From a virus (Duplodnaviria > Heunggongvirae > Uroviricota > Caudoviricetes), in IMG/VR virus record IMGVR_UViG_2778261268_000002: a DNA stretch of 64,000 nucleotides; one strand, given 5' to 3'. Of the stretch, positions 14,997 through 55,629 are shown in pieces. Under the pieces are notes generated by a model, which worked only from the letters and a program-made list of their open reading frames with translations, had not been told where the DNA came from and searched no databases. Each line of letters starts with the position of its first letter. The first letter of the stretch is position 1. A program made the translations under genes and the position numbers.

Positions 14997-16259
14997 ATGA
15001 GCACTTCAGCACAAAACCAATCAATCGAAAATGTATCTATCCCTGACGTCCTGAATGCCGGTATCCCGGCCATTATCCAGAACATCCGGGCCGCGCAACG
15101 CCGCGTTAGTTGTGATGACCTCACAGCGCGTTTTTTTGATAATGCGGTTCAGTCAGCGGAGATGCTTCACGCACAGCTTATTGATGTTTATAACGCAGAA
15201 GCTGATAGCCATAACTCCCTGGTAGATGCAGCTGAAAATATGCAGTTGGATCTCGGTCTGAAGGGTAAAGAAATTGAAGAGCTTCAGCTGCAAATTGAAC
15301 ATTTGAAACGCCAGCAACAGGACGCGATCGACGATGCGACGCATGACGCCAACCAGCGTGCTGATAATGCCGAACGTATAAGCATTGAGCTGGAAACAAA
15401 ACTCAATGAAATGACCGCGATGGTTGAACTGCGGAACTCACAGATTTCAACGCTAAAATCTCAATATAAAGAGATCATGAAACTTGATCCTTTTAACCTT
15501 GAGAAACGCTATAACAAAGCTAAAAGCGAGCGACAGGAACTGCGTAAGCAGGTCGCCGACCTTAACCAACAGCTCAAAAAAACTATTAAAGATGCAAGCG
15601 AAGCGCGCGTGGCATTTGCTAATAAAAAAGCAGAGGTTACCGCGCTGGTTAATGAGAATGCCAAATTTGCGACGCTCAAGAAGGAAATGTATGGCATTAC
15701 TGAGCGCCGTTTCCCTGCAAGAAAACTTCATCCGACGTTAGGGCAAATCTCCTTCTTCCCGCGCCTCCTGGCTTATGGGATCTCATCGCCTAAAGAGTTC
15801 AATAACGAGCGTCCTTATATCGTTTCTAAGCTGGACTTTGCTTATCAGTTCTGCTGCGACATGGGCTATGCCATTGATATCCGGATCAACGAATGGTTGA
15901 TGCCAAACTTCCAGCCGTTGGCCATTTTCCGCGAGTTCCAGCCGGAAGGTTGGGTAGAGTTCTTCCATGAATTGATCTGTAAAGAGATGGAAAGCCGCCG
16001 CCCGGAACTGGTCCGTCGAGTTGAGTGGGCGCAAGAGGTTATATTGGCAGAGGCAGAGCTGCCGTTCGAACCGGAATTCATTGATGATCTGGCAACTAAA
16101 GGGCTGCATACCCTGTTTGATGTGGTTACCCGCCGTCATGAGCAGTTGGTTGTCGAATTGGGTTTAGAGGAAACTGCGGCAAGAAGACTTCTCGATGTTT
16201 GCTATGCACGTAGCGATGCATGGGAAAAAGAGAACGGCGGCACTATTTACGTTCGCTGA
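14997..16259 (+). CDS. hypothetical protein with N-terminal coiled coil (420 aa)
   Basis: Long ORF, heptad-like charged region (aa ~60-230), no enzymatic motif recognised. Confidence 0.55.
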   Translation: MSTSAQNQSIENVSIPDVLNAGIPAIIQNIRAAQRRVSCDDLTARFFDNAVQSAEMLHAQLIDVYNAEADSHNSLVDAAENMQLDLGLKGKEIEELQLQIEHLKRQQQDAIDDATHDANQRADNAERISIELETKLNEMTAMVELRNSQISTLKSQYKEIMKLDPFNLEKRYNKAKSERQELRKQVADLNQQLKKTIKDASEARVAFANKKAEVTALVNENAKFATLKKEMYGITERRFPARKLHPTLGQISFFPRLLAYGISSPKEFNNERPYIVSKLDFAYQFCCDMGYAIDIRINEWLMPNFQPLAIFREFQPEGWVEFFHELICKEMESRRPELVRRVEWAQEVILAEAELPFEPEFIDDLATKGLHTLFDVVTRRHEQLVVELGLEETAARRLLDVCYARSDAWEKENGGTIYVR

Positions 16260-41200: not shown

Positions 41201-44200
41201 CATGTCAGTACATACGCGGTCCATATCCCTGATTATTGAGAAGATCGGACGGGCTTTCTCGTGCTCAATCACGCCGTCTTCATTGACCGAGGTCGTTACA
41301 CCATTGTTGGCTTTGGCCGCCGCTTCCGCCTGCTGACGCAATTCTTCATACGCCGCCAGTTGTTCTTCAGTAAGTGGTGCATCCTGCTGGTGTTCGTCCA
41401 GTTCCGGGATCTCCACGGTATCCTTAACGTCTTCCGCCGTTTTAAGCGTTGTCCAGCGATGGAATATGCCGCGCAGCGCATCAAGGTTTTCAAAACCCAC
41501 CAGCGCCATTTTTTCTTCAACTTCGCCGCTGATTTTCTGTACCGTTTCCAGCCTGGTCTTGCCGAAGAATTTTACGAAGTCATCAGGACTGTAGATCCCC
41601 ATCTTCTGCCAGTATTCCTTCGGCAGAACATGAGAAAGCATGTTGTATGCATCGATCGGGGTGTTAACGACTGGTGTTGCAGTCAGGAGAACCGGTCCGC
41701 GCCCGCCATTCTTTTTCATCAAGTACGCGTTTTTGATTGCCATATCTCGCGCCGATTGCGCCACCGCGCTGGTGGGCAGATAGGCCAGCTGTGACGCTTC
41801 GCGACCATTTTTATAGCTATTGCGGTAGTTGTGGCCTTCGTCAGCAATCACGCTGTCGAAGCCCATATCCTCAAAGTACGGATACTTCTCTGCTTTTTCG
41901 GTACCGGTATCTGAATACTCCGACAATACCCGGCGACGCGCCGCCTCTTTGCGGTGGGAGTCGGAGTCCATTGCGCTGGCTACGCGCCCGGCGGCAACGA
42001 AGTCATAAAGCATGTCTTGTGCATGCTCATCTACGGTGTCATCACGTAGCGGAATGCGGGCGTATTGTTCTTTGGTAAACACGACTGCACGGTAATTTGA
42101 GTGCGGGATCGCGTTCATCCGCGCCGTGATAGTGGCTTCATCTGCCAGCTTAAGAGCATCGCGCATAACTGGAGTGCCATCAGTACCAAGAACAGGTTTA
42201 CCGTTCTCATTGAGCACCGGCACCTGGCGAATCTGATCGCCATCCATCAGCACATCAAGACCGACGAACAAGTAGTTACTGAATGCCTCTTCACTCAGGA
42301 ATTCTTTTGCTTCGTAATACCAATTTTCCAGCACTGATTTAGGCACTACATACGCAGTACGGGTGGAGCGACCGTTCTCATAGTTGAACGCCTCAAGCGC
42401 CAGCGCGGTCGTGGTTTTACCCAGCCCGGTGCCGAAGCCCAGGATGCCGCGCCCATCTTCGGACAGTCGGCGCACCTCGCTATTCTGGTAATCAAATGGC
42501 TGGCGCTTACCGCTTAATCCCTTCAACCCAAGCGGATCGCCAGAGTGTTCATACGGGATATTGCTATTGAACACATCGTTGTATTTGGTAACCAGTTCAT
42601 CGTAGCGATCGTGCGTCTTGATCCACTTATTGAACTGGTCCTCAAGCAGTGCCATCTGCTCGCGGTAGCCGTTCGCCGTCGCGCTATCTTTGCCACCGAT
42701 ACGCGCACCATTGAGATACTTTTCCAGCTGTGCCGGGAACCCGGTCGCGTTTTCACCTGATTTACGGTCCCACTCGTAGCGGATCTCGCCTGTTTCTTTA
42801 TCCTTGCGCTGGACGACACCGTATCGGTGCCCGACGAACAGGCCATCACTACCGTGATAGGTGTCAGAAACCATTTCGTCGCCTTCCAGCTGCACTGACT
42901 GCACATAGCGCAGATCCGGATAGCCGTTTTCCTGCAAAAATTCCAGAATGACGGAACGGTCGAACCAACGGCTATTGAGCTTAAAGCGGATATTCTCTGC
43001 TGGCGTCTTGATGCGCTTCTCTTCGATCGCTGCCAGCTGATTAAGGACGTTGTTCTTTACTGGACCGTCGGGGAGTGTGGCAAGGAATTCCTGTTTTGGA
43101 GCCACTATCTCGTTAATGTCGCCGCTGGTGGCGCGGGCGAACGGAACAATCCCGCCATACGGTGAAACCGCAATGCCAGGGGTGCTGGCCAATAAATTAA
43201 GCAACTCGTCATCACTGGCTGGCAGTTCACCGGTAAACGCAAGGCGGAAATCATCGAGCTGGATTGGATCGCGAGTGAGATCACTGTAGAGATAACGCAG
43301 GGTGTCCTGATAGCTGGTGGAGTCATAACTGGCGCTGGAATCATGCGTAACCAGTTTTCCTGTCAGCTCGTCAGAAATAGCGCCATCCAGCTTAATTGCA
43401 CCACGGAAAGCAAACCAAGCGCGCGCACCGCTTCCTGATAATTTCGCTATAGGACCGCGACCGGGGTTACCAAAACGGTCAATCTCTGCCTGCAAACGGG
43501 ATACCAGAGAAAGGCGCTGCTGTTCGATTTGTTCAGCACTATGCCCGGCGGCCTTCATATCCTGATATTCAATTAACATCCGGCCAATCATCGCCCCGCG
43601 ATACAAGCGTTCACGGTATTTTTCAGGCTGGCTGTTAATCCAGTCCACCAGCTGCACCATATCGTCGCTGATTGATGTGGTGTACTTATCGCGGACATTT
43701 GCCATCTGGGTAAATGTCATACCGAGACGGCCTTCTGTTGTAGTCAGGTTACGCTGAAGAGCCTCCCAGCTATCCGCGCCATAACTGGCAGCATCGATCT
43801 TAAGTTCCTTCCCGGCATCAGCTTCAATCCAGCGACCACCAGCATATTTTTGCCATACGCCATTAATCAGGCGCATTTCCCCTTCACCAACAACGTCTGC
43901 GGTCGGTGACGGTTCAGCCATATCGAGCAAAGACCAGTCGATACGGCTTTCGAAACGATGAATCAGCTTCGCTTTAAGAGCCTGGTTATCAATCTGACCG
44001 TCGGCACGAACCTCAATACGCCCCTGGAAGCCCTTTTCCTGGGTGCCATGAACAAACCGGCGGCCATCCTTTTCAAACCACTTGCCAGAAATAAACGTTG
44101 GCCAAAGCACATTTGCCGATTCAAGAGTGCTTTCATCCACCAGGGGGATTTTCTCAGCCATCTCTGCCGGATGTTTGCGCATCAGCACCACATCTACGAC

Positions 44201-44995
44201 CGTACTGGTCCCGTTTGCGTCAAAAGTACCGGTAGGCAAGCGGTGGGCACCAAGAAATTCAGCTTTCCGTGATAGGCGCAGGCGTAACCGCTTCATGTTT
44301 GAACCTGAAACAATGGACGGCGGCACAATCACGCACATGAATCCGCCTGGCTTTATCTTGTCCAGCATGCGGAGCATGAAGTAAGAACCCATGTCCGTTT
44401 CTTCTGCGTAAGGCTTATCGATGTTGCGTGTGTTATCACGACCGCCGAACGGAACGTTACCCACAACATGGTCGAATGAATCGTTAGGCGTGCTTACAGC
44501 CAGTTGTTCGAACGGGGAAATCTGTACGCTGTCTTCCGGGTGTAACAGCTGGTTTATACGACCGGAAACACTGCTGATCTCAGTCGCGGTCATCACCGTA
44601 CCAACCGGTTTTGTCTCATTAAAAACGCCGGTTCCCGCCGATGGTTCCAGAGTGTTACCTACGTCCGCGCCGTAGAGCTTCATGATCTCCCAGACACCTT
44701 CAGCGATCGGCTTTGGTGTGTAATATTCGGAGACGGACCCGCCAATGCCGCCTTCACCGGTGTACCCAGCCAGGATCTGGCGCTGTTCATCTGTCAGTGT
44801 CGCGCCGTCCACCAGTGAATTAAGCAAATCTATCGCCTTCTGATTCGCCTCCCGGCGCAGTCGGTCATAGCTTTTGCCTTCCACCTTTTCCACGCCGTAT
44901 TTAATCGGCGCTCGGTGAGATGTTATTGCCCTAATGTATTTCAATATTTCGCTGACACTTGAACAGCGAAACACCCCCATAGATAGCTTGTTCAT
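38228..44995 (-). CDS. darB: DarB antirestriction protein: N6-adenine methyltransferase fused to DEAH-type helicase
   Basis: 2255 aa (size recalled for P1 DarB); methyltransferase motifs LEPSAGTGVF and GNVPFGG; helicase motifs GTGLGKTT, VIADEGHNY, LLTATPV. Confidence 0.9.
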   Translation of the reverse strand: MNKLSMGVFRCSSVSEILKYIRAITSHRAPIKYGVEKVEGKSYDRLRREANQKAIDLLNSLVDGATLTDEQRQILAGYTGEGGIGGSVSEYYTPKPIAEGVWEIMKLYGADVGNTLEPSAGTGVFNETKPVGTVMTATEISSVSGRINQLLHPEDSVQISPFEQLAVSTPNDSFDHVVGNVPFGGRDNTRNIDKPYAEETDMGSYFMLRMLDKIKPGGFMCVIVPPSIVSGSNMKRLRLRLSRKAEFLGAHRLPTGTFDANGTSTVVDVVLMRKHPAEMAEKIPLVDESTLESANVLWPTFISGKWFEKDGRRFVHGTQEKGFQGRIEVRADGQIDNQALKAKLIHRFESRIDWSLLDMAEPSPTADVVGEGEMRLINGVWQKYAGGRWIEADAGKELKIDAASYGADSWEALQRNLTTTEGRLGMTFTQMANVRDKYTTSISDDMVQLVDWINSQPEKYRERLYRGAMIGRMLIEYQDMKAAGHSAEQIEQQRLSLVSRLQAEIDRFGNPGRGPIAKLSGSGARAWFAFRGAIKLDGAISDELTGKLVTHDSSASYDSTSYQDTLRYLYSDLTRDPIQLDDFRLAFTGELPASDDELLNLLASTPGIAVSPYGGIVPFARATSGDINEIVAPKQEFLATLPDGPVKNNVLNQLAAIEEKRIKTPAENIRFKLNSRWFDRSVILEFLQENGYPDLRYVQSVQLEGDEMVSDTYHGSDGLFVGHRYGVVQRKDKETGEIRYEWDRKSGENATGFPAQLEKYLNGARIGGKDSATANGYREQMALLEDQFNKWIKTHDRYDELVTKYNDVFNSNIPYEHSGDPLGLKGLSGKRQPFDYQNSEVRRLSEDGRGILGFGTGLGKTTTALALEAFNYENGRSTRTAYVVPKSVLENWYYEAKEFLSEEAFSNYLFVGLDVLMDGDQIRQVPVLNENGKPVLGTDGTPVMRDALKLADEATITARMNAIPHSNYRAVVFTKEQYARIPLRDDTVDEHAQDMLYDFVAAGRVASAMDSDSHRKEAARRRVLSEYSDTGTEKAEKYPYFEDMGFDSVIADEGHNYRNSYKNGREASQLAYLPTSAVAQSARDMAIKNAYLMKKNGGRGPVLLTATPVVNTPIDAYNMLSHVLPKEYWQKMGIYSPDDFVKFFGKTRLETVQKISGEVEEKMALVGFENLDALRGIFHRWTTLKTAEDVKDTVEIPELDEHQQDAPLTEEQLAAYEELRQQAEAAAKANNGVTTSVNEDGVIEHEKARPIFSIIRDMDRVCTDMDLYYRRITYRFLPEYADAVQQLADSLPKQATSEDDDSDDSITQQSQYSLIDKGEFIQLQVPEAFEQEVNKRLARFGIDEQTVTHPVTPKYAKLIATLKEFFPEGKQIIFTDEKTQHQKLKRIICNALNLEPSKVGILNAQTVAEAGKTGKKLKAVKPPKELPDEPTDAQIAKYNEQMALYDAYIAQQNEMSLGGLEKIAADFQEGRTPIIICNKKAEVGINLHRGTTDIHHLTLPWTPASIAQRNGRGARVGSNRASVRVHYYCGKGSFDEYRLKTLKRKAGWISDILRSDKSEMENADANDMIEMQMYTAKDDGERLAMMQVQMDKAKAAQRARQKEQATIDLQNYIKAQHAAGEDVEVLTAELERSKAELEKTTAEVAKFKQAAMAKAADNADWKARWGSVHHTDRMLLAQYRASLKSAIQRKANISQAISRYEKLLNRTQKAATDIKRLRPLVEDALNKGILDVDPDLVNHASEFLVIGDRSWRVGQYYDCAGDIVRIKSLDFDSQRADVEIIFTFKGTKSGNWDVKTLDKQVDVTPDEDAVMQKISGGVSIAGINDIVSCDDFYRFQQRGMIKITDSYGVQTTESGYSIDFVGTYTDPLKHAVYPDRRDGALKSSIAKWVLGMMSEGNNRQIRSAEAFLVELFGSNYGDVIASYGDTLSPEAIQEKIADAIARMPEKTSQGATRNGDSELEVTNAIFGTNEFRASDYEITTAQFGTIGIYSNKDEIKQAMDAASARIAAERKVNLNHAVAALTQSWVTAIREAATTGKITPAIADVVNDGSKFMDAYKMDAVQLPSAYGQLSYRMTYNLVSMFTDLAILGLVDLNEVTPELLSMRKNHVEILQSINTVLAGRTDEEKQADADRINLALGNITEEEIAARNEKQEELSSIQGDATSIAQSLGLNYRVSTADLEMMYAPKFAAGEVFGLQEASGMKGVLFRAKDAIKAKFGARWLPAKAKNSDFLGNWWIIETKHNVADVLAVIQQYA

Positions 44996-45004
44996 TGGTA
45001 ATCC

Positions 45005-45028
45005 TTAACAAGTGACTAGTGTTAAATT
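45005..45028 (+). promoter_or_regulatory. P1 late-promoter-like motif upstream of the putative portal gene
   Basis: TTAACAAGTGACTAGTGTTAAATT; shared AACAA(A/G)TGA core with three other sites. Confidence 0.45.
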
Positions 45029-45061
45029 CCGTTCAAACACGATGCGAATTATTCTAATTAA

Positions 45062-47792
<2,731 letters not shown>

Positions 47793-47794
47793 CA

Positions 47795-49130
47795 CCCTCC
47801 ACGCCCTGACGGGCGTGGATTCCTGCTACGTTCAGGCTGTCGCCTGAATCATTTCGGTGGGTTCCTGCTTCAACGGACGGCCTGACTGCACCATCCCTCC
47901 ACAGGCAAGTACGGCGTGCCCCGCCGCTAAAATGTTACGAGCGCCGTTTACATCGGCGTTCGCTGTATATCCACATACCTGGCATCTGAATTTACTTTGT
48001 GACAGGCGATTTTCTTTCGCGGTATGACCACAGCACGCGCAACGCTGGCTTGTGTACGCTGGCGGCACTGCCAGTACCTGACCACCATGCCAGAGCTGCT
48101 TATACTCAAGCTGGCGGCGCATTTCATACCAGCCCTGATCCAGTATCGAACGGTTTAAACCTGATTTTGCCCGGACATTGCGACCCGGCTGACTTATCGT
48201 ACCCGCCGCTGACTTTGACATGTGTTTAACCTTCAAATCCTCAATGACAATCATTGCGTGGTTTTTGCTGATGATCGTTGTGACTTTATGAAGGTAGTCT
48301 CTGCGGATATTTGCGATACGGGAGTGCAGTTGCTGTATTTTGCGTTTCTGCTTCTGCCAGTTGTTGCTGAATCTGACCTTGCGGCTTAACTGGCGCTGAA
48401 GTCTCGCCAGCTTTTTCTGGTTTTTCTGGAAACTGTTTACAGGCTCAAAGACTGTGCCATCTGACAGCGTGGCGAGCCTGGCCACGCCAGCATCCAATCC
48501 GACCATTGATGCTGAAGGGTGAGCCGGAGTGGATACTTCACTTTCTGTCTGAATACTGATGTACCATTTACCGCAGGACTGGCTGACAGTGACATTTTTC
48601 ACAATCCCCGTGACCTGCCGGCTGTTACGGTAGCGCATCCAGCCAAGTTTCGGCAGAAAAATACGGCTGTTTTCCTGGTCGAGCTTAACACCCTGCGGGT
48701 AGCGGAATGCATCATTCTGTCCCCGCTTTTTGAATCGGGGAAAAGCCGCCCGCTTCTGGAAGAAATTTTTGTAGGCCCGCTCAAGGTCTTTCAGTGACTG
48801 CTGCAATGGCTGTGAGGGAGAATCTTTAAGCCATTCGGTTTCAGTGTCTTTTTTCCACTCAACCAACCAGGAAGCCATTTTCGTGTAAGGGATGTATTTA
48901 TTCCCGGCCTCATAATTCTCATTCTGAAGTGCCAGTGCACGATTGAAAACGAAACGACAAGCTCCGGCAAAGAGCCTCATTTGACGCTCCTGTTGACCAC
49001 CGGGTCTTAACTGGAATTTAAATGCTTGTAGTCGCTTCATCCCACTATTTTAAACAAAAACAGTTAGGTGGAAAACCACGCCTTATATCCCCTCCCTGAA
49101 GGACGGGATTTTACGGCGCACCGGATAACC
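47795..49130 (-). mobile_element. IS200/IS605-family insertion carrying tnpB only (approximate boundaries)
   Basis: TnpB ORF flanked by subterminal hairpins (CCACGCCC-TGAC-GGGCGTGG at 47799-47818; GGCGTGG-containing imperfect palindrome near 49060-49100); no tnpA. Confidence 0.6.
47832..49040 (-). CDS. tnpB: TnpB (OrfB) RNA-guided nuclease of an IS200/IS605 element
   Basis: 402 aa; RuvC-like split motifs and C-terminal zinc finger CACCGH...CQVCGY; N-terminal region typical of OrfB. Confidence 0.85.
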
Positions 49131-49162
49131 ACCAAAAATAACCCCGGCGGCTTCCGGGGTTA
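49131..49162 (-). terminator. rho-independent terminator for the leftward lysis transcript
   Basis: AACCCCGG-CGGCTTC-CCGGGGTT hairpin; the minus strand reads hairpin followed by ATTTTTGG. Confidence 0.55.
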
Positions 49163-49172
49163 TCGTTAACTA

Positions 49173-49427
49173 TTATCGCCTTCGCCTGCGTGCCATATAT
49201 TTGCGCACCGCGCGGCGTGGACAATCTGAAGCGGTTTCTTTCTGCTGCATCAATCTCGCAGCCATGCTCAAAAATGTCAGGCACAGCCGAAGCCCGGCAT
49301 ATAATAGCGGTTCCAGTGGCCACGTCTCATTGAGCACATATACCGCCATGAAAATCGAGTCGAAAACTATCGCCGCCAGCGATAACTTCATTGTCGAAAG
49401 TCGGCGGAGCTGCCGGAGTTTATTCAT
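49173..49427 (-). CDS. small membrane protein downstream of lyz
   Basis: 84 aa, hydrophobic core, Arg-rich C-terminus; start overlaps the lyz stop. Confidence 0.45.
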   Translation of the reverse strand: MNKLRQLRRLSTMKLSLAAIVFDSIFMAVYVLNETWPLEPLLYAGLRLCLTFLSMAARLMQQKETASDCPRRAVRKYMARRRRR

Positions 49428-49977
49428 TGATCAGCCCCGTCAGGCAAAGCTGGCGTTCTTTTTCACGGCGAATCTTTAAACCTCGCAGGGGCACGCCGTT
49501 ACTGTTCACGAAATCAGGGAGATGGTTACACATATTCACCCATTCCTCTTTCTGCGCCCACTTGTGGATGGACGTTTCTACTCGCATGCCTCGCGCTTTG
49601 CTGTAGTAGGTCCGTAAGCTATTACATCCCATATTGAATGCCGCGCTTGTCATTGCACTGAAGGCATTATCGGGCATGTCTTTGCCCCGGAAGTGCTGAT
49701 TAATACAGCGTTCAGCGATCAGGATATTCTTTTCCCAATCAGCGGCGATTTGCTGGTCGGTTTTTCGCACACCCGGCGTTACCCCGTGTGCATTACCGAT
49801 CCCGTCAGTCCATACCCCCGCCGGGCACATGTATGGATCACGTCGGCAACCTTCAGCGTTACCAATCAGCTCAAGCCCTGCCTGGTTGGTTCGCACATTG
49901 CCATTACCCATCACGATGGTAATCATCACCGCGATAGCGCAAATTGCACCGCCTCCTGCGGCTGTTTTTCCCTTCAT
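49420..49977 (-). CDS. lyz: SAR endolysin (P1 Lyz)
   Basis: 185 aa from MKGKTAAGGGAICAIAVMITIVMG (signal-anchor-release segment); lysozyme catalytic region; matches recalled P1 Lyz. Confidence 0.9.
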   Translation of the reverse strand: MKGKTAAGGGAICAIAVMITIVMGNGNVRTNQAGLELIGNAEGCRRDPYMCPAGVWTDGIGNAHGVTPGVRKTDQQIAADWEKNILIAERCINQHFRGKDMPDNAFSAMTSAAFNMGCNSLRTYYSKARGMRVETSIHKWAQKEEWVNMCNHLPDFVNSNGVPLRGLKIRREKERQLCLTGLINE

Positions 49978-50060
49978 AAAGACCTCATAAGCGAATTTTT
50001 TACGCTCCAGGACAAACACTCATTCACAGCCAATACCGACTGACTCGATCCCTTTAGAAG

Positions 50061-50088
50061 GCACAGGATAATGCAAATCACTTGTTAG
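50061..50088 (-). promoter_or_regulatory. P1 late-promoter-like motif upstream of lyz
   Basis: Reverse complement reads AACAAGTGATTTGCATTATCCTGTGC. Confidence 0.4.
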
Positions 50089-50110
50089 CTACGTTTCAAA
50101 GATATACATT

Positions 50111-50127
50111 ATTGCTCTAATTAATTT
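50111..50127. promoter_or_regulatory. C1 operator-like site upstream of ssb
   Basis: ATTGCTCTAATTAATTT. Confidence 0.6.
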
Positions 50128-50146
50128 ATTTTATTAGGTAAGATAA

Positions 50147-50635
50147 GTGGCACAACGCGGTGTAAACAAAGTCATCCTGATTGGTACCCTGGGGCAAGAC
50201 CCGGAGATCAGGTATATACCAAATGGCGGCGCGGTCGGAAGACTCAGCATCGCAACGAATGAATCATGGCGCGACAAGCAAACGGGCCAACAGAAAGAGC
50301 AAACAGAATGGCATAAAGTCGTTTTGTTCGGAAAACTTGCTGAAATTGCGAGTGAGTATTTACGAAAAGGTTCTCAGGTCTACATCGAAGGGAAACTTAA
50401 AACCCGTAAGTGGACAGATGACGCCGGTGTAGAACGTTACACGACGGAAATTATCGTCAGCCAGGGCGGCACCATGCAAATGATCGGCGCTCGCCGTGAC
50501 GATTCACAGTCCTCAAATGGCTGGGGGCAATCAAACCAACCTCAAAACCACCAGCAATACAGTGGTGGCGGTAAACCTCAGAGCAACGCCAATAACGAAC
50601 CTCAAATGGACTTTGACGACGATATTCCGTTTTGA
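50147..50635 (+). CDS. ssb: single-stranded DNA-binding protein
   Basis: GTG start with RBS AGGTAAG; OB fold beginning [17 protein letters not shown]; Gly/Gln-rich linker; acidic tail DFDDDIPF. Confidence 0.9.
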
Positions 50636-50832
50636 ATGTGTAAAAAACGACTGAAAGAAAAGCGGTGGTCCAGACGCCGACAAAAGCACGAACTCGCAAA
50701 CAAACGCCAAAGTTGGCAATGGCACGCGCTTTTCACGAAAAGAACACCCCGAGATATTGCTTTCGCTGGTGGGAAAACATTCCTGACCCACCTGAAGGCG
50801 CAATACATCAGGTTTTAAGCAGAGGAAAGACT

Positions 50833-51510
50833 ATGAATAACATGACAACGAAAGAGCTTTTGACGGCACTTCCAAAATACAAAAGCCATAAAACAGTTCG
50901 CGCCTCAAAAATCAAAGATATCGAAATTATCGCCCTAATGGATGTGGTCCTTTTTTGCAACATCGAAGTCGTTGAGCCAGAAGGGGTAAAAGTCCATGTT
51001 GATAAAATGTTTTTGCAAAAACACCGACCAGAAATTGGCGGATATCTGGTCGCTTATGAGGACGGATCTCTGTCCTATTCACCAGAAAAAACATTTGAAG
51101 AAGGCTTTAGTCGGACTAACGACTTCTTCGAAAATGGGGTATCGCTCAGTATTGAAGGTCACAATGGGGTGACATTCATTACAGCCAGGGACGTAACTAT
51201 TGCTGCCAGTGGCATCATTACCACACAAGAAGAAATCGACCTTGAAGCAGCCGACTTTTCTGACGCGCTGATGTGGCTGAAGGATGGCAAGAAAGTTGCT
51301 CGACGCGGGTGGAACGGCGAAAACCAATTCTGCTGGCTGGTTCCTGAAGGACAGTACCCGGCACGAATGGAAGCCATTAAGGGATATTTCCCCGGCGACC
51401 TCGTTCCGTATGGTGCTTATTTCGCCTTAAAAAATGCACAAGGTGTAGTTGTTCCGTGGGTGCCTTCTGTATGCGACTTACTGGCATGTGACTGGTTTGT
51501 AGTGGAGTGA
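50833..51510 (+). CDS. two-domain protein with C-terminal DUF2829 (Tad2-like) domain
   Basis: ATG 50833 with RBS GAGGAAAG; C-terminal ALMWLKDGKKVARRGWNGENQF...PYGAYFALKNAQGVVVPWVPSVCDLLACDWFVVE fits the DUF2829 pattern. Confidence 0.55.
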   Translation: MNNMTTKELLTALPKYKSHKTVRASKIKDIEIIALMDVVLFCNIEVVEPEGVKVHVDKMFLQKHRPEIGGYLVAYEDGSLSYSPEKTFEEGFSRTNDFFENGVSLSIEGHNGVTFITARDVTIAASGIITTQEEIDLEAADFSDALMWLKDGKKVARRGWNGENQFCWLVPEGQYPARMEAIKGYFPGDLVPYGAYFALKNAQGVVVPWVPSVCDLLACDWFVVE

Positions 51511-51516
51511 TTTAAC

Positions 51517-52305
51517 GTGGAAAATACTAAAGCAATTCAATACCGCCTGCGTAATGGCCAGAGTGTCGAAGTGACCATCAATAATGATGGTGTACCTGGC
51601 GAAAAGGTTTCTATCTCTGATCTGGCTATCGAAAAAACCATCATGTGCCACCTTGGCTTTACTGAAGAAGTGAGCAAAAAGCATGGTGTAGCTATCTGGC
51701 GCACAATGGATACTGGCATGCGCAGATTCATTACTGCTCGTACCCCTAGTATGACCATGATGGACCTCATGCAGATTGCGCCGCTGTTTGAGTGTGAACC
51801 TTTGGATGTATTCAGCAATCCAGCCATCTGCCAGCAGTTATATGGTGAGATGAAACTCGCGGTTACCCCCATTGTGCTGCATGAAGGATCGCTTGCTGGC
51901 GTATGGAAAGTAGAGCGAATTTCAAGCTACATGCCTTTCCACATCCATGTCAACGGCGTAATCGCAGGTGAAAATCAACCTGTTTCAGTTACAAAGTCAG
52001 ACCTCAAGCGCGCAATTCTTGAAGCAAGTTGTCGAGTTATCGGCCTGGGCAAACAGTCTTATGTTTCCTTCCCGGCTGGCCCTGAAGGCCCGGCAGAAAT
52101 TCTGATTATGGATGCCGATCTGCTCTGGCAAATACAGTTTCTGATTGGCAAAAGCATCATCCACGCTGAAGAACTCGATCAGTACATTACCTGCACGATG
52201 ACGGATGAAGTCAAAAGTGTGGCTATAGCCAATGCCCGGAACCTATGTCGTGCTGCATTAACAGAACTGCAAGAAAACACCACGGAAGAAGTGGAAAGCG
52301 ATTAA
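51517..52305 (+). CDS. hypothetical protein (262 aa)
   Basis: GTG start; long ORF ending at a terminator hairpin. Confidence 0.5.
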   Translation: MENTKAIQYRLRNGQSVEVTINNDGVPGEKVSISDLAIEKTIMCHLGFTEEVSKKHGVAIWRTMDTGMRRFITARTPSMTMMDLMQIAPLFECEPLDVFSNPAICQQLYGEMKLAVTPIVLHEGSLAGVWKVERISSYMPFHIHVNGVIAGENQPVSVTKSDLKRAILEASCRVIGLGKQSYVSFPAGPEGPAEILIMDADLLWQIQFLIGKSIIHAEELDQYITCTMTDEVKSVAIANARNLCRAALTELQENTTEEVESD

Positions 52306-52334: not shown

Positions 52335-52652
52335 TCAATATACGATCTGGTCTACATGATCCCCAAAATCATCGTCGTCATCGTCGTCGTCCTCATCGCC
52401 ACCCTCTACTGCTGGCCAATCAACAAACCAGCCAGCGTAAAGATGCAGCGTTCGGAGAACATCACTTGCGGGAGCATCAAGGGTGTTAACGAATCCCATA
52501 TAGCTATTGGGATTTGCCCCAGCTATGGCTTCAGCGATCATGTCCTCGGTAATGTCACCGGAGATAATGCTTAAACGCCCGGAAACTTCTTCATTATCAT
52601 CAAATTCGATAATGGCATCTCCGCCTAATGGCGCTGCGATTTTAATCTGCAT
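52335..52652 (-). CDS. hypothetical protein with poly-Asp C-terminal region
   Basis: 105 aa; GGDEDDDDDDDD tract; last gene of the leftward dar operon. Confidence 0.45.
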   Translation of the reverse strand: MQIKIAAPLGGDAIIEFDDNEEVSGRLSIISGDITEDMIAEAIAGANPNSYMGFVNTLDAPASDVLRTLHLYAGWFVDWPAVEGGDEDDDDDDDDFGDHVDQIVY

Positions 52653-55629
52653 TATTTAGCTCCTTTGCCACACCTAATAACAGTTCCAGCAATCCGTCAC
52701 CATTCATCAGTGATGCGGCAGCGGCCTCTTTGTCATGATACAACTGAAGAGCCATAGAGAATACTTCCGTTGCTGACGTTTTGGAAATAGTCGGGGATTT
52801 CTGCCGAATTTTCCCAGTGTTACTTACTGAGGCTGGCGGGTATACCTTCGCCATATAAATATTACTCAATCGAGATCTGAAGCACCATTCAGGCTTGCCA
52901 CGCCCACCGATATTAACGAAAGATGGCTTATCCCCTTCAACATTGGCCTTCAGGAATGACCGGGCTTTCTCTAACAAACCAGGGTTACTGTACTCAAGAT
53001 GATGACCCAGCTCGTGCCACAGTGCACTTGCATTTTCATCGTTCAAATTGACAGCAACAACACCATTAAGATTTGCATATGCCCTTCCCTTGTGGTGAAC
53101 CACCTTTGATAAGGTCGAAATTTTACCGCCGGTCAGGCGATAAATATCAGCAAGTTCCTTGCGCAGGTCTATCCCACCATTCTGTCCAGCGCGGGCTTCT
53201 TCCACTTCTTCCGTGATAAAAGAGTCGGCCCACTCAAGAGCTTTTTCTTCAGATACGGATGAGTTTGCGATCGCACTGTTCATGGCAGATAACACTTTCT
53301 CGTGGACCGAACCCATACTTCGCTGATTCATTTGCCAGCGTGTCTGCGGGTTATATGAGAATCGCTTAAGTAGTTGGTCAAGATGCTCAAGTTCTTCTTC
53401 ACTGACATACTTTTTAGCCTCACCAATAATGCCAGGGAGAATATTGCCGTTAGGATTAAACGCTCGCGAAAGGAAGAGTTTCAGCGCCCCCATGCCCTCC
53501 GATGCTTCAATATCACCAATAACCCGGTTAACAATGGCCGCACTCTTCGGATTAGCATCCGCCAACGCTCTGGCTACAATTTGCAGGGACGATACGACAT
53601 CACGCTGCATATCCGTCCTGATCTCATCAATAAACTCTGGCGTTATGCCGTGCTCTTTAAGGATATCCCTGCCTTCCGCCGTTACCCCATCGATATCACC
53701 GACATGTTTATTAACCCGACTTTGCAATGCCTTAAATGCCTTCAGAATTCCACGGGCATCATCCGCTTTACTAACGGCCTTCCTGAATGCTGGCAAGAAG
53801 TCTGAGTTAACCTCATTTTGTTGATCGGCCCACTGAATGGAGGCTTCTTTCATCTCGTCCAGAGTCAGATCACCCAACGCGGTATGGTCTGTGAATATGA
53901 GCGACAACCTCTGAATCATTTCTGCCAATGGTGATGCCGAATGCGCCGCGCTAAGGAATGCTTTCACCCTGGTTGGGCGAATGGAAAACCAGTCAATAGC
54001 TGGTGGCATATCTCCGTTTTTTATCGCCTGCGCTATCTCATCAAAGCCGTCGCGCCCAAGGGAGGATGCGTGATTTAACAATCCGCGAAGTAACGAATTG
54101 CTGATACCGAATAATCGGCACCATTTATTCACGTCGGCAACAGGCATTCGAACAAAATGCGCAAGCACTTGAACAAGCTGTTCATCCTGGGGATCTGTAC
54201 GGGAAAGCAGCCTGATCAGATGAATAATGTCTTTGATGCCGGATGCCCGATGTAATAGCAAGCTGGTATATGGAGCAACACCGTTGTAACTACCGCCAGA
54301 AGCTGACTCGAAAAGACCGCCAGATATCCCTTGCATACCTTCGTTTTCCAGTTCCTGAGACACCTGGCGAAGGATATCCTGTAACGACACATCGCCGCCG
54401 CCAAACATATCCCCCAGCGCCTGGCCCTGGTGCTGTAACTCATCATTGATACGTTGAGCCATCAACTTAAAGGCGGTGGCCATACGCTTCGCGCTACGGT
54501 TATTCGCGACGATGAACAACGCGAGTGCTTTCACTTCCGGGGCCGTTTCGCTGAACATATCCCCCTGAGCAATAACATCGGTAATATGCTGGCCTGACTC
54601 CTTCGATTGCCTTACCAGGTCTACCGCATCTTTCAATGCCTCCAGCGCCTTTTTATCGAGGCTATCCGCTGTCTCAATGCCATCAACAATAGTTGTCACA
54701 GCCTGCTTGTGCGCTTCTCCTGATAAAGCCTGCATCTGGACAAAATCATTGGCTGCCGCATTAAGCGCCGTCAGAACATTACGCATATCCGGATCAGGTT
54801 CTTCTGCAACCATCCTTACCAAGCGCGCATCCTTATATGCCTTGGCAAAGATCGCGTTTTGTATACGGTCTACAAGTTGCCGTGTTGGTCGCCCATCTTC
54901 AGTTACAAGGCCAGCCGCCTGTGTGGCACCAACTTGCGTCATAAATCCGCGAATAAACGCGTCATTACTGCGGCTAAGCAGATCTCCACTTTCTGACGGG
55001 TTAAACAACGCCATCATCGCCGGTGTTATGCTGTCGGCATCAACAAAAGCCTTTTCACTGGCTGCCATTTCCTGGAGATCAGAAATATTTGAGTCCTTGG
55101 CAAACTGAACACGGTCAACCTTCGTTAACCGGCGGCGCACCAGTACCGGAGCCGTCATTGATTCAACCTTTTCAGGCCGTATGCCGAATTCGGTCGCATG
55201 TTCAATCAGGTACTCCCGATACCGATCCGCATTACCGTCCTGATAGGCTTTAATGATCCCCATGGTCCGCCCATTACCTGACTCAACGGCATTGTCCTCA
55301 CCAATTATTGGCGCGCCATGGCTGGATAAACCGGAATCGGTAAGCTGGGCAGGACGCAAATCCTTGGATATCTGGTTGACCTGAAGAAGGCTGGATGCGC
55401 GGGTCCGGTCGCGCGGCTGAAGTTCCTGGGGATAGTCTGGATTAATTTTCCCATCCAGAGTATTGGATACCAAAAGAACTGAGGCATCGACGATATCAAA
55501 CGCTGTTTTTACCTCGTCTCCCTTCGCTGTCACCACATACGAAACCCGCCCATAATCGGGCAGGTTCTTTAGCAGCTCGATCAGCGTTTCTATGCTGGTG
55601 GCCATTACCACCTGATCGCTTAAGCTCAT
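52642..55629 (-). CDS. ddrB: large virion antirestriction-associated protein (P1 DdrB-like by position)
   Basis: 995-aa ORF downstream of the darA-like gene; assignment by synteny and size. Confidence 0.55.
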   Translation of the reverse strand: MSLSDQVVMATSIETLIELLKNLPDYGRVSYVVTAKGDEVKTAFDIVDASVLLVSNTLDGKINPDYPQELQPRDRTRASSLLQVNQISKDLRPAQLTDSGLSSHGAPIIGEDNAVESGNGRTMGIIKAYQDGNADRYREYLIEHATEFGIRPEKVESMTAPVLVRRRLTKVDRVQFAKDSNISDLQEMAASEKAFVDADSITPAMMALFNPSESGDLLSRSNDAFIRGFMTQVGATQAAGLVTEDGRPTRQLVDRIQNAIFAKAYKDARLVRMVAEEPDPDMRNVLTALNAAANDFVQMQALSGEAHKQAVTTIVDGIETADSLDKKALEALKDAVDLVRQSKESGQHITDVIAQGDMFSETAPEVKALALFIVANNRSAKRMATAFKLMAQRINDELQHQGQALGDMFGGGDVSLQDILRQVSQELENEGMQGISGGLFESASGGSYNGVAPYTSLLLHRASGIKDIIHLIRLLSRTDPQDEQLVQVLAHFVRMPVADVNKWCRLFGISNSLLRGLLNHASSLGRDGFDEIAQAIKNGDMPPAIDWFSIRPTRVKAFLSAAHSASPLAEMIQRLSLIFTDHTALGDLTLDEMKEASIQWADQQNEVNSDFLPAFRKAVSKADDARGILKAFKALQSRVNKHVGDIDGVTAEGRDILKEHGITPEFIDEIRTDMQRDVVSSLQIVARALADANPKSAAIVNRVIGDIEASEGMGALKLFLSRAFNPNGNILPGIIGEAKKYVSEEELEHLDQLLKRFSYNPQTRWQMNQRSMGSVHEKVLSAMNSAIANSSVSEEKALEWADSFITEEVEEARAGQNGGIDLRKELADIYRLTGGKISTLSKVVHHKGRAYANLNGVVAVNLNDENASALWHELGHHLEYSNPGLLEKARSFLKANVEGDKPSFVNIGGRGKPEWCFRSRLSNIYMAKVYPPASVSNTGKIRQKSPTISKTSATEVFSMALQLYHDKEAAAASLMNGDGLLELLLGVAKELNNAD

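What the first reader, a model, noticed from the sequence alone, without database searches (positions are those of the whole stretch)
50833..51510. DUF2829 (Tad2-like) domain fused to an N-terminal domain, next to ssb
The C-terminal ~90 aa (ALMWLKDGKKVARRGWNG...PYGAYFALKNAQGVVVPWVPS..DLLACDWFVVE) fits the DUF2829 signature. Stand-alone DUF2829 proteins (Tad2) are known to sequester Thoeris signalling nucleotides. Here the domain is fused to an unrelated ~130-aa N-terminal domain, which would be an unusual architecture for an anti-defence sponge.
Basis: partly seen in the sequence, partly recalled or inferred. Interest (0 to 1): 0.65.

Follow-up and report, generated by a model that had tools for sequence, protein, structure and literature searches.

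The report
Tad2 immune-signal sponge with OB-fold partner
This P1-like phage-plasmid gene joins a well-supported Tad2 "sponge" domain, of the kind that soaks up bacterial immune alarm molecules, to a small OB-fold domain that turns out to be a frequent but untested partner of every known sponge family.

Summary
Window 50833-51510 (+) is an intact 225-aa gene just after ssb. Its C-terminal ~90 aa are a clear Tad2/DUF2829 domain: Pfam E=3.6e-23, 46% identical to the solved ModTad2, with the core ligand-pocket residues conserved. It is 67% identical to Tad2_68, a stand-alone homologue reported to block type I and II Thoeris.

The "unusual architecture" claim does not hold. Tad2 fusions are published. 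This exact gene sits in 213 of 5426 complete E. coli genomes, on P1-like phage-plasmids, annotated "DUF2829 domain-containing protein". Phage P1 itself lacks it.

The new part is the N-terminal domain. It is an OB fold homologous to the capsid-binding domain of the phage L decoration protein Dec. It has no Pfam family but matches thousands of protein clusters, many of them stand-alone. It occurs fused to Tad2, Sequestin, Acb4, Lockin and Tad1, or encoded right beside Acb2, Acb4, Tad2 and a Tad2-Sequestin fusion. One published sponge screen deliberately excluded such fusions.

Most likely this is an early-expressed, two-module anti-defence protein. The Tad2 part probably sequesters TIR-made ADPR signals. 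The OB module's role is unknown; it is perhaps a second ligand binder.

The parts
50082..50144 (+). ssb promoter region (P2ssb and P1ssb) with the C1-repressor operator Ossb (ATTGCTCTAATTAATTT at 50111-50127)
   Evidence: Window 50020-50150 is 99% identical to the annotated P1 region (P1 features). This places the operon under prophage-repressor control.
50147..50635 (+). ssb, single-stranded DNA-binding protein (162 aa), first gene of the operon
   Evidence: Pfam SSB E=6.9e-40 and phrog_44. Annotated ssb in P1 and SJ46.
50636..50832 (+). Conserved leader between ssb and the gene. It is annotated as the 5' part of the CDS in P1 (isaA) and SJ46, and is probably non-coding. The AGAGGA ribosome-binding site is at 50821-50826.
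   Evidence: 57 of 65 aa identical between the GTG-extended ORFs of the window and P1, although the downstream genes differ. No Rfam match at gathering threshold. No + strand terminator-like site.
50833..51510 (+). The finding: a 225-aa OB-fold + linker + Tad2 fusion protein
   Evidence: ORF. phrog_872 matches the full length, E=8.6e-60. 138 homologues found. RefSeq name is 'DUF2829 domain-containing protein'.
50866..51117 (+). N-terminal OB-fold domain (aa 12-95), homologous to the capsid-binding domain of phage L Dec
51118..51231 (+). Variable beta-rich linker or 'stalk' (aa 96-133, NDFFENGVSLSIEGHNGVTFITARDVTIAASGIITTQE)
   Evidence: pLDDT below 50 with short strands. Replaced by helical or short linkers, or absent, in other homologues. 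Six alleles among P1-like plasmids.
51232..51507 (+). C-terminal Tad2/DUF2829 domain (aa 134-225). Predicted pocket residues are W160, N161, W209, S212 and D215.
   Evidence: Pfam PF11195 E=3.6e-23. PDB ModTad2 and Tad2 matches. Foldseek 2.2e-9, TM 0.75-0.89 normalised to the target. 67% identical to the tested Tad2_68. Pocket residues mapped from SPO1 Tad2 and invariant in the homologue alignment A1.
51517..52305 (+). isaA-like gene (262 aa), starting 6 nt after the stop codon. It travels with the Tad2 module.
   Evidence: phrog_2326 E=6e-150, with no Pfam, NCBIfam or PADLOC hit. Equals P1 IsaA from its internal Met. The same Tad2-isaA junction occurs in phage D6 at 96.8% nucleotide identity.
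52335..55629 (-). Context: hxr (52335-52652) and ddrB (52642-55629), the convergent minus-strand neighbours next to the P1 dar (defence against restriction) genes
   Evidence: ORFs. P1 and SJ46 annotation at the matching position.

Best explanation
The gene encodes a cytoplasmic, early-expressed anti-defence protein with two modules.

Shown:
- It lies in the C1-repressor-controlled ssb operon of a P1-like phage-plasmid.
- Its C-terminal 90 aa are a bona fide Tad2 domain with the core pocket residues intact.

Inferred:
- After infection or induction the Tad2 domains assemble through helix alpha1 into the usual tetramer.
- The tetramer sequesters TIR-made ADP-ribose-derived alarm molecules, most likely His-ADPR and/or 3'cADPR of type II and type I Thoeris. 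The Thoeris effector is then never switched on.

The N-terminal Dec-like OB-fold domain hangs on a variable tether, probably four copies per tetramer. It is a portable accessory module of the phage counter-signalling toolkit. My preferred reading, at about 0.4, is that it binds a second ligand, such as another nucleotide signal or a conserved host factor, and so broadens what the protein neutralises. The same logic applies to the published Tad2-Acb4 and Tad2-Sequestin double sponges.

The gene is an exchangeable cargo cassette (OB-Tad2 plus isaA) at a variable spot downstream of ssb. Its modules are reshuffled among otherwise near-identical plasmids.
For: Tad2 identity:
- Pfam E=3.6e-23; PDB sequence hits to ModTad2, Tad2, HgmTad2 and SPO1 Tad2.
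- The AF2 model of the domain has pLDDT 85-92 and Foldseek E=2e-9.
- The SPO1 pocket residues W25, N26, W73, S76 and D79 align to W160, N161, W209, S212 and D215. W160, W209 and D215 are invariant and S212 nearly so in 39 homologues.

Likely ligand:
- 67% identity to Tad2_68, recorded as positive against type I (plaque assay) and type II Thoeris and negative for type IV Thoeris, CBASS and Pycsar (Table S2 of 10.1101/2025.08.24.671296).
- 46% identity to ModTad2, which binds His-ADPR.

N-terminal additions are tolerated: the 151-aa HgmTad2 is recorded as inhibiting type I Thoeris.

Early expression:
- The operator and promoters upstream of ssb are 99% identical to P1 Ossb/Pssb.
- No + strand terminators lie in the operon.
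- In Klebsiella phage SopranoGao and a metagenomic contig, the orthologous fusion lies 2-4 genes downstream of a cI/cro-like switch.

OB module tied to sponges:
- Among 76 multi-domain representatives carrying it, the only Pfam partners are Sequestin (18), Tad2 (14) and Acb4 (4).
- OB-Tad1, OB-Acb4-Lockin and OB-Tad2-Sequestin also exist.
- In 80 viral loci, 16 have a known sponge fused to or near the OB gene. Nine have a separate sponge ORF on the same strand within about 0.7 kb, roughly 17-fold denser than in the rest of the flanks.
- Stand-alone members keep five basic residues, five to six Tyr and Asp, Ser, Ser and Glu nearly invariant across very different phages.

Cassette behaviour and arms-race signature:
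- The gene is absent from P1 and P7 and present in SJ46.
- Nine OB, six linker and four Tad2-loop alleles are recombined in many combinations.
Against: - Neither this protein nor any OB-Tad2 fusion has been tested. They were explicitly excluded from the one large Tad2 screen.
- Residues that contact adenine or hold waters in SPO1 Tad2 differ here: T78 to C214, H71 to V207, D67 to Q203 and T65 to N201. C214 is Gly in nearly all homologues. Ligand specificity is therefore a guess.
- Tetramer formation with a 135-aa N-terminal load on helix alpha1 could not be modelled here.
- The OB domain is not basic overall, with net charge about -1. Its only solved relative binds capsids, not nucleotides.
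- Phage D6 carries the same gene with the OB domain cleanly deleted, so the OB module may be dispensable.
- The window copy has Ser and Phe at two otherwise conserved Tyr positions, 79 and 92.
Confidence: 0.62

Rival explanations
1. The OB domain works as in Dec, as a capsid-binding anchor. The protein would then be a capsid decoration or a capsid-tethered sponge. The beta-rich linker could form a Dec-like trimeric stalk. This might place the sponge where capsid-sensing TIR proteins fire, or mask the capsid from sensors.
For: - Real homology to the capsid-binding OB domain of Dec.
- The 38-aa linker is beta-rich and disordered in the monomer model, as published for Dec's C-terminal spike.
- In Ralstonia phage GP4 the stand-alone homologue gp05 lies between the portal and major head genes.
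- Pseudomonas phage Dolphis annotates its homologue as 'capsid decoration protein'.
- One variant (P0023) carries a tail-fibre N-terminus.
Against: - Here the gene is in the C1-controlled ssb operon, not a late operon.
- It is absent from P1 and P7, which build the same kind of virion.
- In SopranoGao, Dolphis and BCSR129 it sits among small early or accessory genes.
- The GP4 capsid cryo-EM structure contains only gp2 and gp1 (PMC9698820).
- The near-invariant polar and aromatic residues are shared by phages with unrelated capsids. That is not expected for a surface that must fit a particular coat lattice.
- The linker is missing or helical in many homologues.
- A trimeric stalk clashes with the Tad2 tetramer.
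Confidence: 0.12
2. Functionally this is just a Tad2 sponge. The OB domain would be a passive passenger that aids solubility, stability or spacing, or is a decaying remnant, with no ligand of its own.
For: - The D6 variant has lost aa ~21-100 but keeps the linker and Tad2.
- Other N-terminal partners (dUTPase, short helices, unrelated small domains) replace the OB domain on a near-identical Tad2 module.
- OB residues are less strictly conserved in the fusions than in stand-alone proteins.
Against: - A passive tag would not be a family with 2548 clusters at E<=1e-10, many of them stand-alone.
- It would not keep about 20 near-invariant residues.
- It would not recur on five unrelated sponge folds and next to others.
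Confidence: 0.2
3. The protein is a DNA-transaction accessory of SSB. The OB fold would bind single-stranded DNA and the gene would be functionally linked to the neighbouring ssb.
Against: - Those matches have 4-13% identity; only Dec shows sequence homology.
- The adjacency to ssb is not conserved.
- All identifiable partners of the OB domain are immune-signal sponges, plus a MazG-like protein. None is a replication protein.
Confidence: 0.04
4. The protein is an anti-CRISPR of the AcrIIA7 type, the first function proposed for DUF2829.
For: Sequence hits to chains deposited as AcrIIA7 or 'inhibitor of type II CRISPR-Cas' (8KBI, 9KZR).
Against: - Those same proteins (HgmTad2) are solved with cADPR and cyclic dinucleotides bound.
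- The Tad2 discovery paper argues that DUF2829 proteins are anti-Thoeris rather than anti-CRISPR.
- From general knowledge, E. coli and Salmonella lack type II CRISPR-Cas.
Confidence: 0.02

Closest known systems
ModTad2/MoTad2 (Myroides odoratus prophage Tad2; PDB 9EIB, 8V3E)
   Same: Best solved relative of the C-terminal domain: 46% identity over 87 columns, Foldseek E=2e-9. It has the same GWNG and W-x-P-S-x-x-D pocket motifs and the same long beta2-beta3 loop.
   Different: ModTad2 is an 88-aa stand-alone protein. It binds His-ADPR and also cUMP/cCMP. The window protein is 225 aa with two extra N-terminal segments, and its ligand is untested.
Tad2_68 (metagenomic Tad2 tested by Hadary et al. 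2025, Table S2)
   Same: 67% identity over 82 aa with no gaps, including the whole variable loop. [quoted passage not shown]
   Different: It is 87 aa and stand-alone, with no OB domain. Position 214 is Gly there and Cys here.
SPO1 Tad2 (Gp34.65; PDB 8SME/8SMF/8SMG), founding member
   Same: Same fold and the same core pocket residues: W25, N26, W73, S76 and D79 align with W160, N161, W209, S212 and D215.
   Different: About 33% identity. The adenine-side residues differ and the loop is shorter. It is an 89-aa stand-alone protein that inhibits type I Thoeris only.
Published double sponges: Acb4-Tad2 (Pasteurella phage Pm86), Tad2-Sequestin and Sequestin-Acb4 (Tal et al. 2025)
   Same: A Tad2 domain joined to another small phage domain in one polypeptide. 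Close relatives of the window's Tad2 module also carry Sequestin at the C-terminus (P0061, P0073).
   Different: In those cases the partner is a proven sponge. Here the partner is an OB-fold domain of unknown activity, and it is N-terminal.
Phage L decoration protein Dec (PDB 6E3C)
   Same: The N-terminal OB fold is homologous: profile E=2.6e-5 over Dec aa 14-91, the shared motif PE-GGYL...G-L-Y...FE..Y, and the same strand and helix order. In both proteins it is followed by a beta-rich segment that is disordered in the monomer.
   Different: Dec is a 134-aa late structural protein that trimerises on capsids. It lacks the YxCHK motif of the wider family and has no sponge domain. The window gene is an early, dispensable cargo gene.
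HgmTad2/AcrIIA7 (PDB 8KBI-8KBM, 9KZR)
   Same: A Tad2 domain with an N-terminal extension that is recorded as inhibiting type I Thoeris.
   Different: Its extension is a ~45-aa helical segment, not an OB fold. Its long loop insert forms a cyclic-dinucleotide pocket.

Membership tests
Tad2 / DUF2829 (PF11195) sponge family | Significant match to the family profile | tested here: met
   PF11195 E=3.6e-23, 82.3 bits against a cut-off of 25, covering profile positions 2-73 of 73.
Tad2 / DUF2829 (PF11195) sponge family | Tad2 fold (alpha1, antiparallel sheet, loop helices) | tested here: met
   AF2 pLDDT 85-92 for aa 140-225. The top 24 Foldseek PDB hits are all Tad2 structures, E 2e-9 to 7e-6, TM 0.62-0.89 normalised to the target.
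Tad2 / DUF2829 (PF11195) sponge family | Conserved ligand-pocket residues (SPO1 W25, N26, W73, S76, D79) | tested here: met
   They align to W160, N161, W209, S212 and D215, which are invariant or nearly so in 39 homologues. Secondary contacts (T78, H71, D67, T65) are not conserved.
Tad2 / DUF2829 (PF11195) sponge family | Homotetramer with pockets at protomer interfaces | not testable with these tools
   Only monomer prediction was available. Helix alpha1 (IDLEAADFSDALMWLK) is the most conserved stretch of the whole protein, which fits an interface.
Tad2 / DUF2829 (PF11195) sponge family | Binds a TIR- or CD-NTase-derived signal and inhibits the matching defence system | not testable with these tools
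   Inferred only, from 67% identity to the tested Tad2_68.
Phage L Dec-type decoration proteins | Homologous N-terminal OB-fold domain | tested here: met
Phage L Dec-type decoration proteins | C-terminal trimeric beta-helix spike | tested here: inconclusive
   A 38-aa beta-rich segment with pLDDT below 50 follows the OB fold. It is variable, helical or absent in homologues and is followed by a domain that forms tetramers.
Phage L Dec-type decoration proteins | Late or structural gene context and presence on the capsid | tested here: not met
   The context test fails. The gene is in the C1-operator-controlled ssb operon, is absent from P1 and P7, and has early or accessory context in other phages. 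Capsid presence itself could not be tested.
Multi-sponge fusion proteins (Tal et al. 2025) | Two or more independent signal-binding domains in one polypeptide | tested here: inconclusive
   One domain is a Tad2. The second (OB) is linked to sponges by fusion and neighbourhood, but no ligand binding is known for it.

The most novel reading that the evidence does not exclude
The Dec-like OB-fold domain is not a passenger. It would be a very large, unnamed family of phage counter-defence proteins with about 2,500-4,900 clusters at 50% identity, most of them stand-alone 80-125-aa proteins. It would act either as a seventh kind of immune-signal sponge or as a universal adaptor that phages bolt onto Tad1, Tad2, Acb4, Sequestin and Lockin sponges. 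The window protein would then be a natural double-acting inhibitor.
Probability: 0.35. Interest if true: 0.8.

Novelty: new variant of a known kind. Interest (0 to 1): 0.55.

Why it matters
P1-like phage-plasmids are common in E. coli and Salmonella; about 4% of complete E. coli genomes carry this gene. A built-in Thoeris sponge would help explain how they spread through hosts that carry signalling-based immunity.

The wider point is the OB-fold partner. The "guilt by fusion" logic already yielded one proven sponge family, Sequestin. Here the same logic points to a much larger, uncatalogued domain that touches every known sponge family by fusion or by adjacency, and that published screens filtered out. 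Testing it is cheap, using co-expression and nucleotide-binding assays. A positive result could add a new class of immune-evasion module. A negative result would still explain a recurrent architecture.

The allele shuffling within one gene on near-identical plasmid backbones is also a compact natural system for studying how sponge specificity evolves.

Tried and rejected
- The longer 281-aa ORF from GTG 50665 was rejected as the gene. The extension is a leader shared with P1 in front of a different gene, and homologues start at the ATG.
- The top hits of the OB profile search (P0121, P0122, P0124, P0126; 1,900-4,600 aa) are spurious. They are bacterial cadherin/Big_9 repeat proteins whose 'GGSLTFNADGSYSFDP' repeats mimic the GGY...DGY.SYSP motif.
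- P0217 looked Acb2-like by eye, but the PDB sequence search did not support it. I dropped it.
- Lockin as the identity of the OB domain was rejected. Lockin (9P8L) matches a different, C-terminal domain of the one OB-Acb4-Lockin protein, and Foldseek of the OB model did not find it.
- No Pfam family covers the OB domain even at E<=1; only scattered chance hits such as P68HR and Tudor appeared.
- There were no NCBIfam or PADLOC hits for the gene or its neighbours.
- Rfam at gathering threshold found nothing in the leader.
- The promoter scan found no extra sigma-70 site inside the operon.
- The afdb50 fold library was unavailable.
- Motif searches of the candidate table in Tal et al. 2025 (Table S2) found no OB-family member, so it does not appear to have been tested there.
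- Three literature searches found no paper describing this OB family as an anti-defence protein.
Full report
**What is there.** The window is part of a P1-like phage-plasmid (Punavirus). The 2.7 kb around the finding matches 628 plasmid records, mostly 90-100-kb non-mobilizable E. coli and Salmonella plasmids. It also matches phages SJ46, P1 and RCS47 at 96-99% identity.

The ORF list shows a reading frame 50665..51510 on the + strand. The true start is the ATG at 50833:
- An AGAGGA ribosome-binding site ends 6 nt upstream.
- Every homologue, down to 31% identity, begins there.
- RefSeq annotates exactly this 225-aa 'DUF2829 domain-containing protein'.
- The 168 nt upstream are a leader that P1 also has, but in front of a different gene, isaA.

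**The C-terminal domain.**
- Pfam PF11195 (Tad2-like) matches aa 141-224 at E=3.6e-23.
- Sequence search of the PDB finds ModTad2 (9EIB, 6.6e-20), apo Tad2 (8V3E), HgmTad2/AcrIIA7 and SPO1 Tad2.
- An AlphaFold2 model built on 39 homologues gives pLDDT 85-92 for this domain. The best 24 Foldseek hits in the PDB are all Tad2 structures.
- The residues that hold 3'cADPR (called 1''-3' gcADPR in the structure paper) in SPO1 Tad2 are W25, N26, W73, S76 and D79. They align to W160, N161, W209, S212 and D215. W160, W209 and D215 are invariant and S212 nearly so in the homologue alignment.
- Second-shell and adenine contacts differ: T78 to C214, H71 to V207, D67 to Q203 and T65 to N201.

The closest experimentally tested relative I could find is Tad2_68 in Table S2 of Hadary et al. 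2025. It is 67% identical without gaps. It is recorded as positive against type I Thoeris (plaque assay) and type II Thoeris, and negative for type IV Thoeris, two CBASS systems and two Pycsar systems. ModTad2 is 46% identical. It binds His-ADPR and also cUMP/cCMP in a second pocket. Membership in the Tad2 family is well supported. The ligand is inferred and most likely a Thoeris signal.

**The N-terminal part.** It has two pieces.

Residues ~12-95 fold with high confidence (pLDDT 90.2, pTM 0.80 when modelled alone). The order of elements is a beta1-beta3 meander, a helix, a beta4-beta5 hairpin and a C-terminal helix. This matches the OB fold described for the phage L decoration protein Dec.
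- A profile of 21 N-domains hits Dec (6E3C) at E=2.6e-5 across Dec residues 14-91, sharing the motif PE-GGYL...G-L-Y...FE..Y.
- Foldseek gives E=1.1e-3.

Residues 96-133 are beta-rich but modelled with pLDDT below 50. In other homologues this segment is replaced by a helical segment or a short linker, or is missing. It behaves as a variable tether.

**How common the architecture is.** It is not unusual.
- Clusters of 453 and 140 member sequences at 97-99% identity exist.
- 213 of 5426 complete E. coli genomes carry the gene or a close variant, almost always on a plasmid.
- Published work reports that Tad2 is often fused to Acb4 and to PF21825, which was then shown to be a new 3'cADPR sponge named Sequestin.
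- The Methods of Hadary et al. [quoted passage not shown] Dec-like + Tad2 proteins had been seen, but were excluded from testing.

**What the OB domain is associated with.** A profile search of 1.84 billion representative proteins gave 4915 hits at E<=1e-3 and 2548 at E<=1e-10. Four giant top hits are false positives from cadherin-like repeats. The rest are small phage-type proteins.
- About 60 of the best 150 are stand-alone proteins of 81-125 aa.
- Some are tandem OB-OB proteins.
- Pfam has no model for the domain. PHROGs has it as phrog_11049, 9467 and 32732, all of unknown function.

Among 76 multi-domain representatives, the only Pfam partners are Sequestin (18), Tad2 (14) and Acb4 (4). 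I also found:
- OB-Tad1: the match to PDB 8KBB is weak (E=0.003), but it covers the characteristic C-terminal motif.
- OB-Acb4-Lockin: Lockin 9P8L, E=1.3e-27.
- OB-Tad2-Sequestin.
- An OB fusion to a MazG-like pyrophosphatase.

In 80 IMG/VR loci containing the domain, I searched with HMMs built from published sponge sequences. Sixteen loci (20%) have a known sponge fused or nearby. Nine have a separate Acb2, Acb4, Tad2 or Tad2-Sequestin ORF on the same strand within about 0.7 kb of the OB gene. Only two lie further out in the ±4-kb flanks. By my rough count that is about a 17-fold enrichment next to the gene.

Stand-alone members keep five basic residues, five or six tyrosines and Asp, Ser, Ser and Glu nearly invariant. 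This holds although they come from podo-, sipho-, myo- and jumbo phages of Ralstonia, Klebsiella, Pseudomonas, Burkholderia, Erwinia and E. coli.

**Expression and genomic setting.**
- The region upstream of ssb is 99% identical to P1, including promoters P2ssb and P1ssb and the C1 operator Ossb at window 50111-50127.
- No + strand terminator-like site lies between ssb, this gene and the next gene, isaA, which starts 6 nt after the stop.
- The gene should therefore be silent in the prophage-plasmid state and switched on when C1 repression is lifted. This is an inference from the P1 annotation.
- In Klebsiella phage SopranoGao and in a metagenomic contig, the orthologous OB-Tad2 gene lies a few genes downstream of a divergent cI/cro-like switch.
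- Stand-alone OB genes sit among small accessory genes in Dolphis, BCSR129 and Dewey.
- The exception is Ralstonia phage GP4, where gp05 lies between the portal and major head genes next to a CsrA-like moron. The published GP4 capsid structure contains only gp2 and gp1.

**Cassette behaviour.**
- P1 itself goes ssb - isaA - IS1 - isaB - hxr.
- P7 has ssb - nmpC.
- SJ46 and this window have ssb - OB-Tad2 - isaA - hxr.
- Phage D6 carries the Tad2-isaA pair elsewhere, near cre, at 96.8% nucleotide identity. There the gene has an internal deletion that removes the OB domain but keeps the first 20 aa, the linker and Tad2.
- Other plasmids have dUTPase fused to the same Tad2 module, or Sequestin added at its C-terminus.
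- Within P1-like plasmids I count nine OB alleles, six linker alleles and four Tad2-loop alleles (85% identity threshold), recombined in many combinations. The flanking ssb-to-hxr stretch stays at 95-99% identity in most matching plasmids. This is the pattern expected of a gene under diversifying pressure.

**Most likely mechanism.** Early after induction or infection the protein is made. The Tad2 domains tetramerise and sequester TIR-made ADPR-type signals, so the Thoeris effector is not activated. The family assignment and pocket conservation are shown; binding and inhibition are inferred.

The OB module is a portable accessory of the counter-signalling toolkit. I favour a second ligand-binding function, at about 0.4. 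This rests on its fusion and neighbourhood pattern, its many stand-alone members and its conserved Tyr/Lys/His cluster.

The main alternatives are:
- a Dec-like capsid anchor, supported by the homology to Dec, the GP4 context and the beta-rich stalk;
- a passive passenger, supported by the D6 deletion and the replaceability of the domain.

A link to ssb or an anti-CRISPR role is unlikely.

**Comparison and novelty.** As a Tad2-family member, this is a new member of a known kind that public pipelines already annotate. The N-terminal Dec-like OB module makes it a new variant. This architecture has been noticed in print only as an exclusion criterion. The domain has no Pfam entry, and I found no paper testing it.

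The value of the finding lies less in this one gene than in the lead it gives. A very large OB-fold family is connected by fusion or adjacency to all six described sponge families: Tad1, Tad2, Acb2, Acb4, Sequestin and Lockin.

**Limits.**
- No multimer modelling, coordinates or electrostatics were available.
- The neighbourhood enrichment uses an internal control only, and some of the 80 loci are related to each other.
- The Tad2_68 phenotype is my reading of a supplementary table.
- The AFDB fold library was unavailable.

Noticed in passing
window 51517-52305 (+): The isaA-like gene (262 aa, phrog_2326) has no Pfam, NCBIfam or PADLOC hit. It is translationally close-coupled to the Tad2 gene. 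The same Tad2-isaA junction recurs at 96.8% nucleotide identity in phage D6 at a different genomic site, so isaA may be a second cargo or anti-defence gene of the cassette. P1's annotated 320-aa IsaA includes the non-homologous leader; the real protein probably starts at its internal Met.
   Followed up: partly
window 47832-49040 (-): A 402-aa IS200/IS605-type TnpB-like ORF sits inside a stretch that RCS47 and the other top P1-like phage matches lack; their alignment splits into two pieces covering 78% of window 44000-50100. It looks like an insertion-sequence insertion between the head-processing gene pro and the lysis genes.
   Followed up: partly
L004 (phage D6) 2594-3034: D6 orf114 is the same gene with an in-frame internal deletion of the OB domain (MNNMATKELFKFLPKYKAHK | KNGTTVIITDDNG...). 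This is a natural OB-less control. Upstream lies a dUTPase gene, and in other plasmids (P0056) it is fused in frame to the end of the linker and the Tad2 domain.
   Followed up: partly
protein P0023 (E. coli, 306 aa): A variant in which a phage tail-fibre N-terminus (Pfam Phage_fiber_2) replaces the first ~25 aa of the OB domain. It could be a real recombinant or an assembly or inversion artefact.
   Followed up: no
phage RCS47 (FO818745) 15522-15776 and about 25579: In RCS47 the OB-Tad2 gene appears split into 'part 1' and 'part 2', about 10 kb apart, by an inserted segment with an ISSod13-family transposase. The gene is disrupted there.
   Followed up: no
L019, L069, L089 (IMG/VR contigs): Compact islands of several sponge genes. 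L019 has a Tad2-Sequestin fusion directly followed by an OB-Acb4 fusion. L069 has OB, then Acb2, then a divergent Tad2-like ORF. L089 has an OB-Acb4-Lockin triple fusion.
   Followed up: partly
L007 (Ralstonia phage GP4) 4989-5264: The stand-alone OB-family gene gp05 lies between the portal and major head genes, next to a CsrA-like gene. It was not seen in the published icosahedrally averaged capsid map. This is worth checking for low-occupancy or vertex-specific binding.
   Followed up: partly
window 1339-3553 (+): A tRNA cluster. Asn(GTT), Thr(TGT) and Met(CAT) are found by both ARAGORN and Rfam. A further tRNA-Ser(TGA) call at 2056-2142 comes from ARAGORN only.
   Followed up: no
window 50636-50832 (+): A 197-nt ssb-distal leader is conserved between this window and P1 although the gene behind it differs. 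It has no Rfam match at gathering threshold, and its function (processing site, translational control or recombination joint) is unknown.
   Followed up: partly
proteins P0121, P0122, P0124, P0126: Giant bacterial cadherin/Big_9 repeat proteins score very highly against the OB profile because of a repeated 'GG.L.F..DGSYSF.P' motif. This is a trap for anyone building an HMM of this family.
   Followed up: yes
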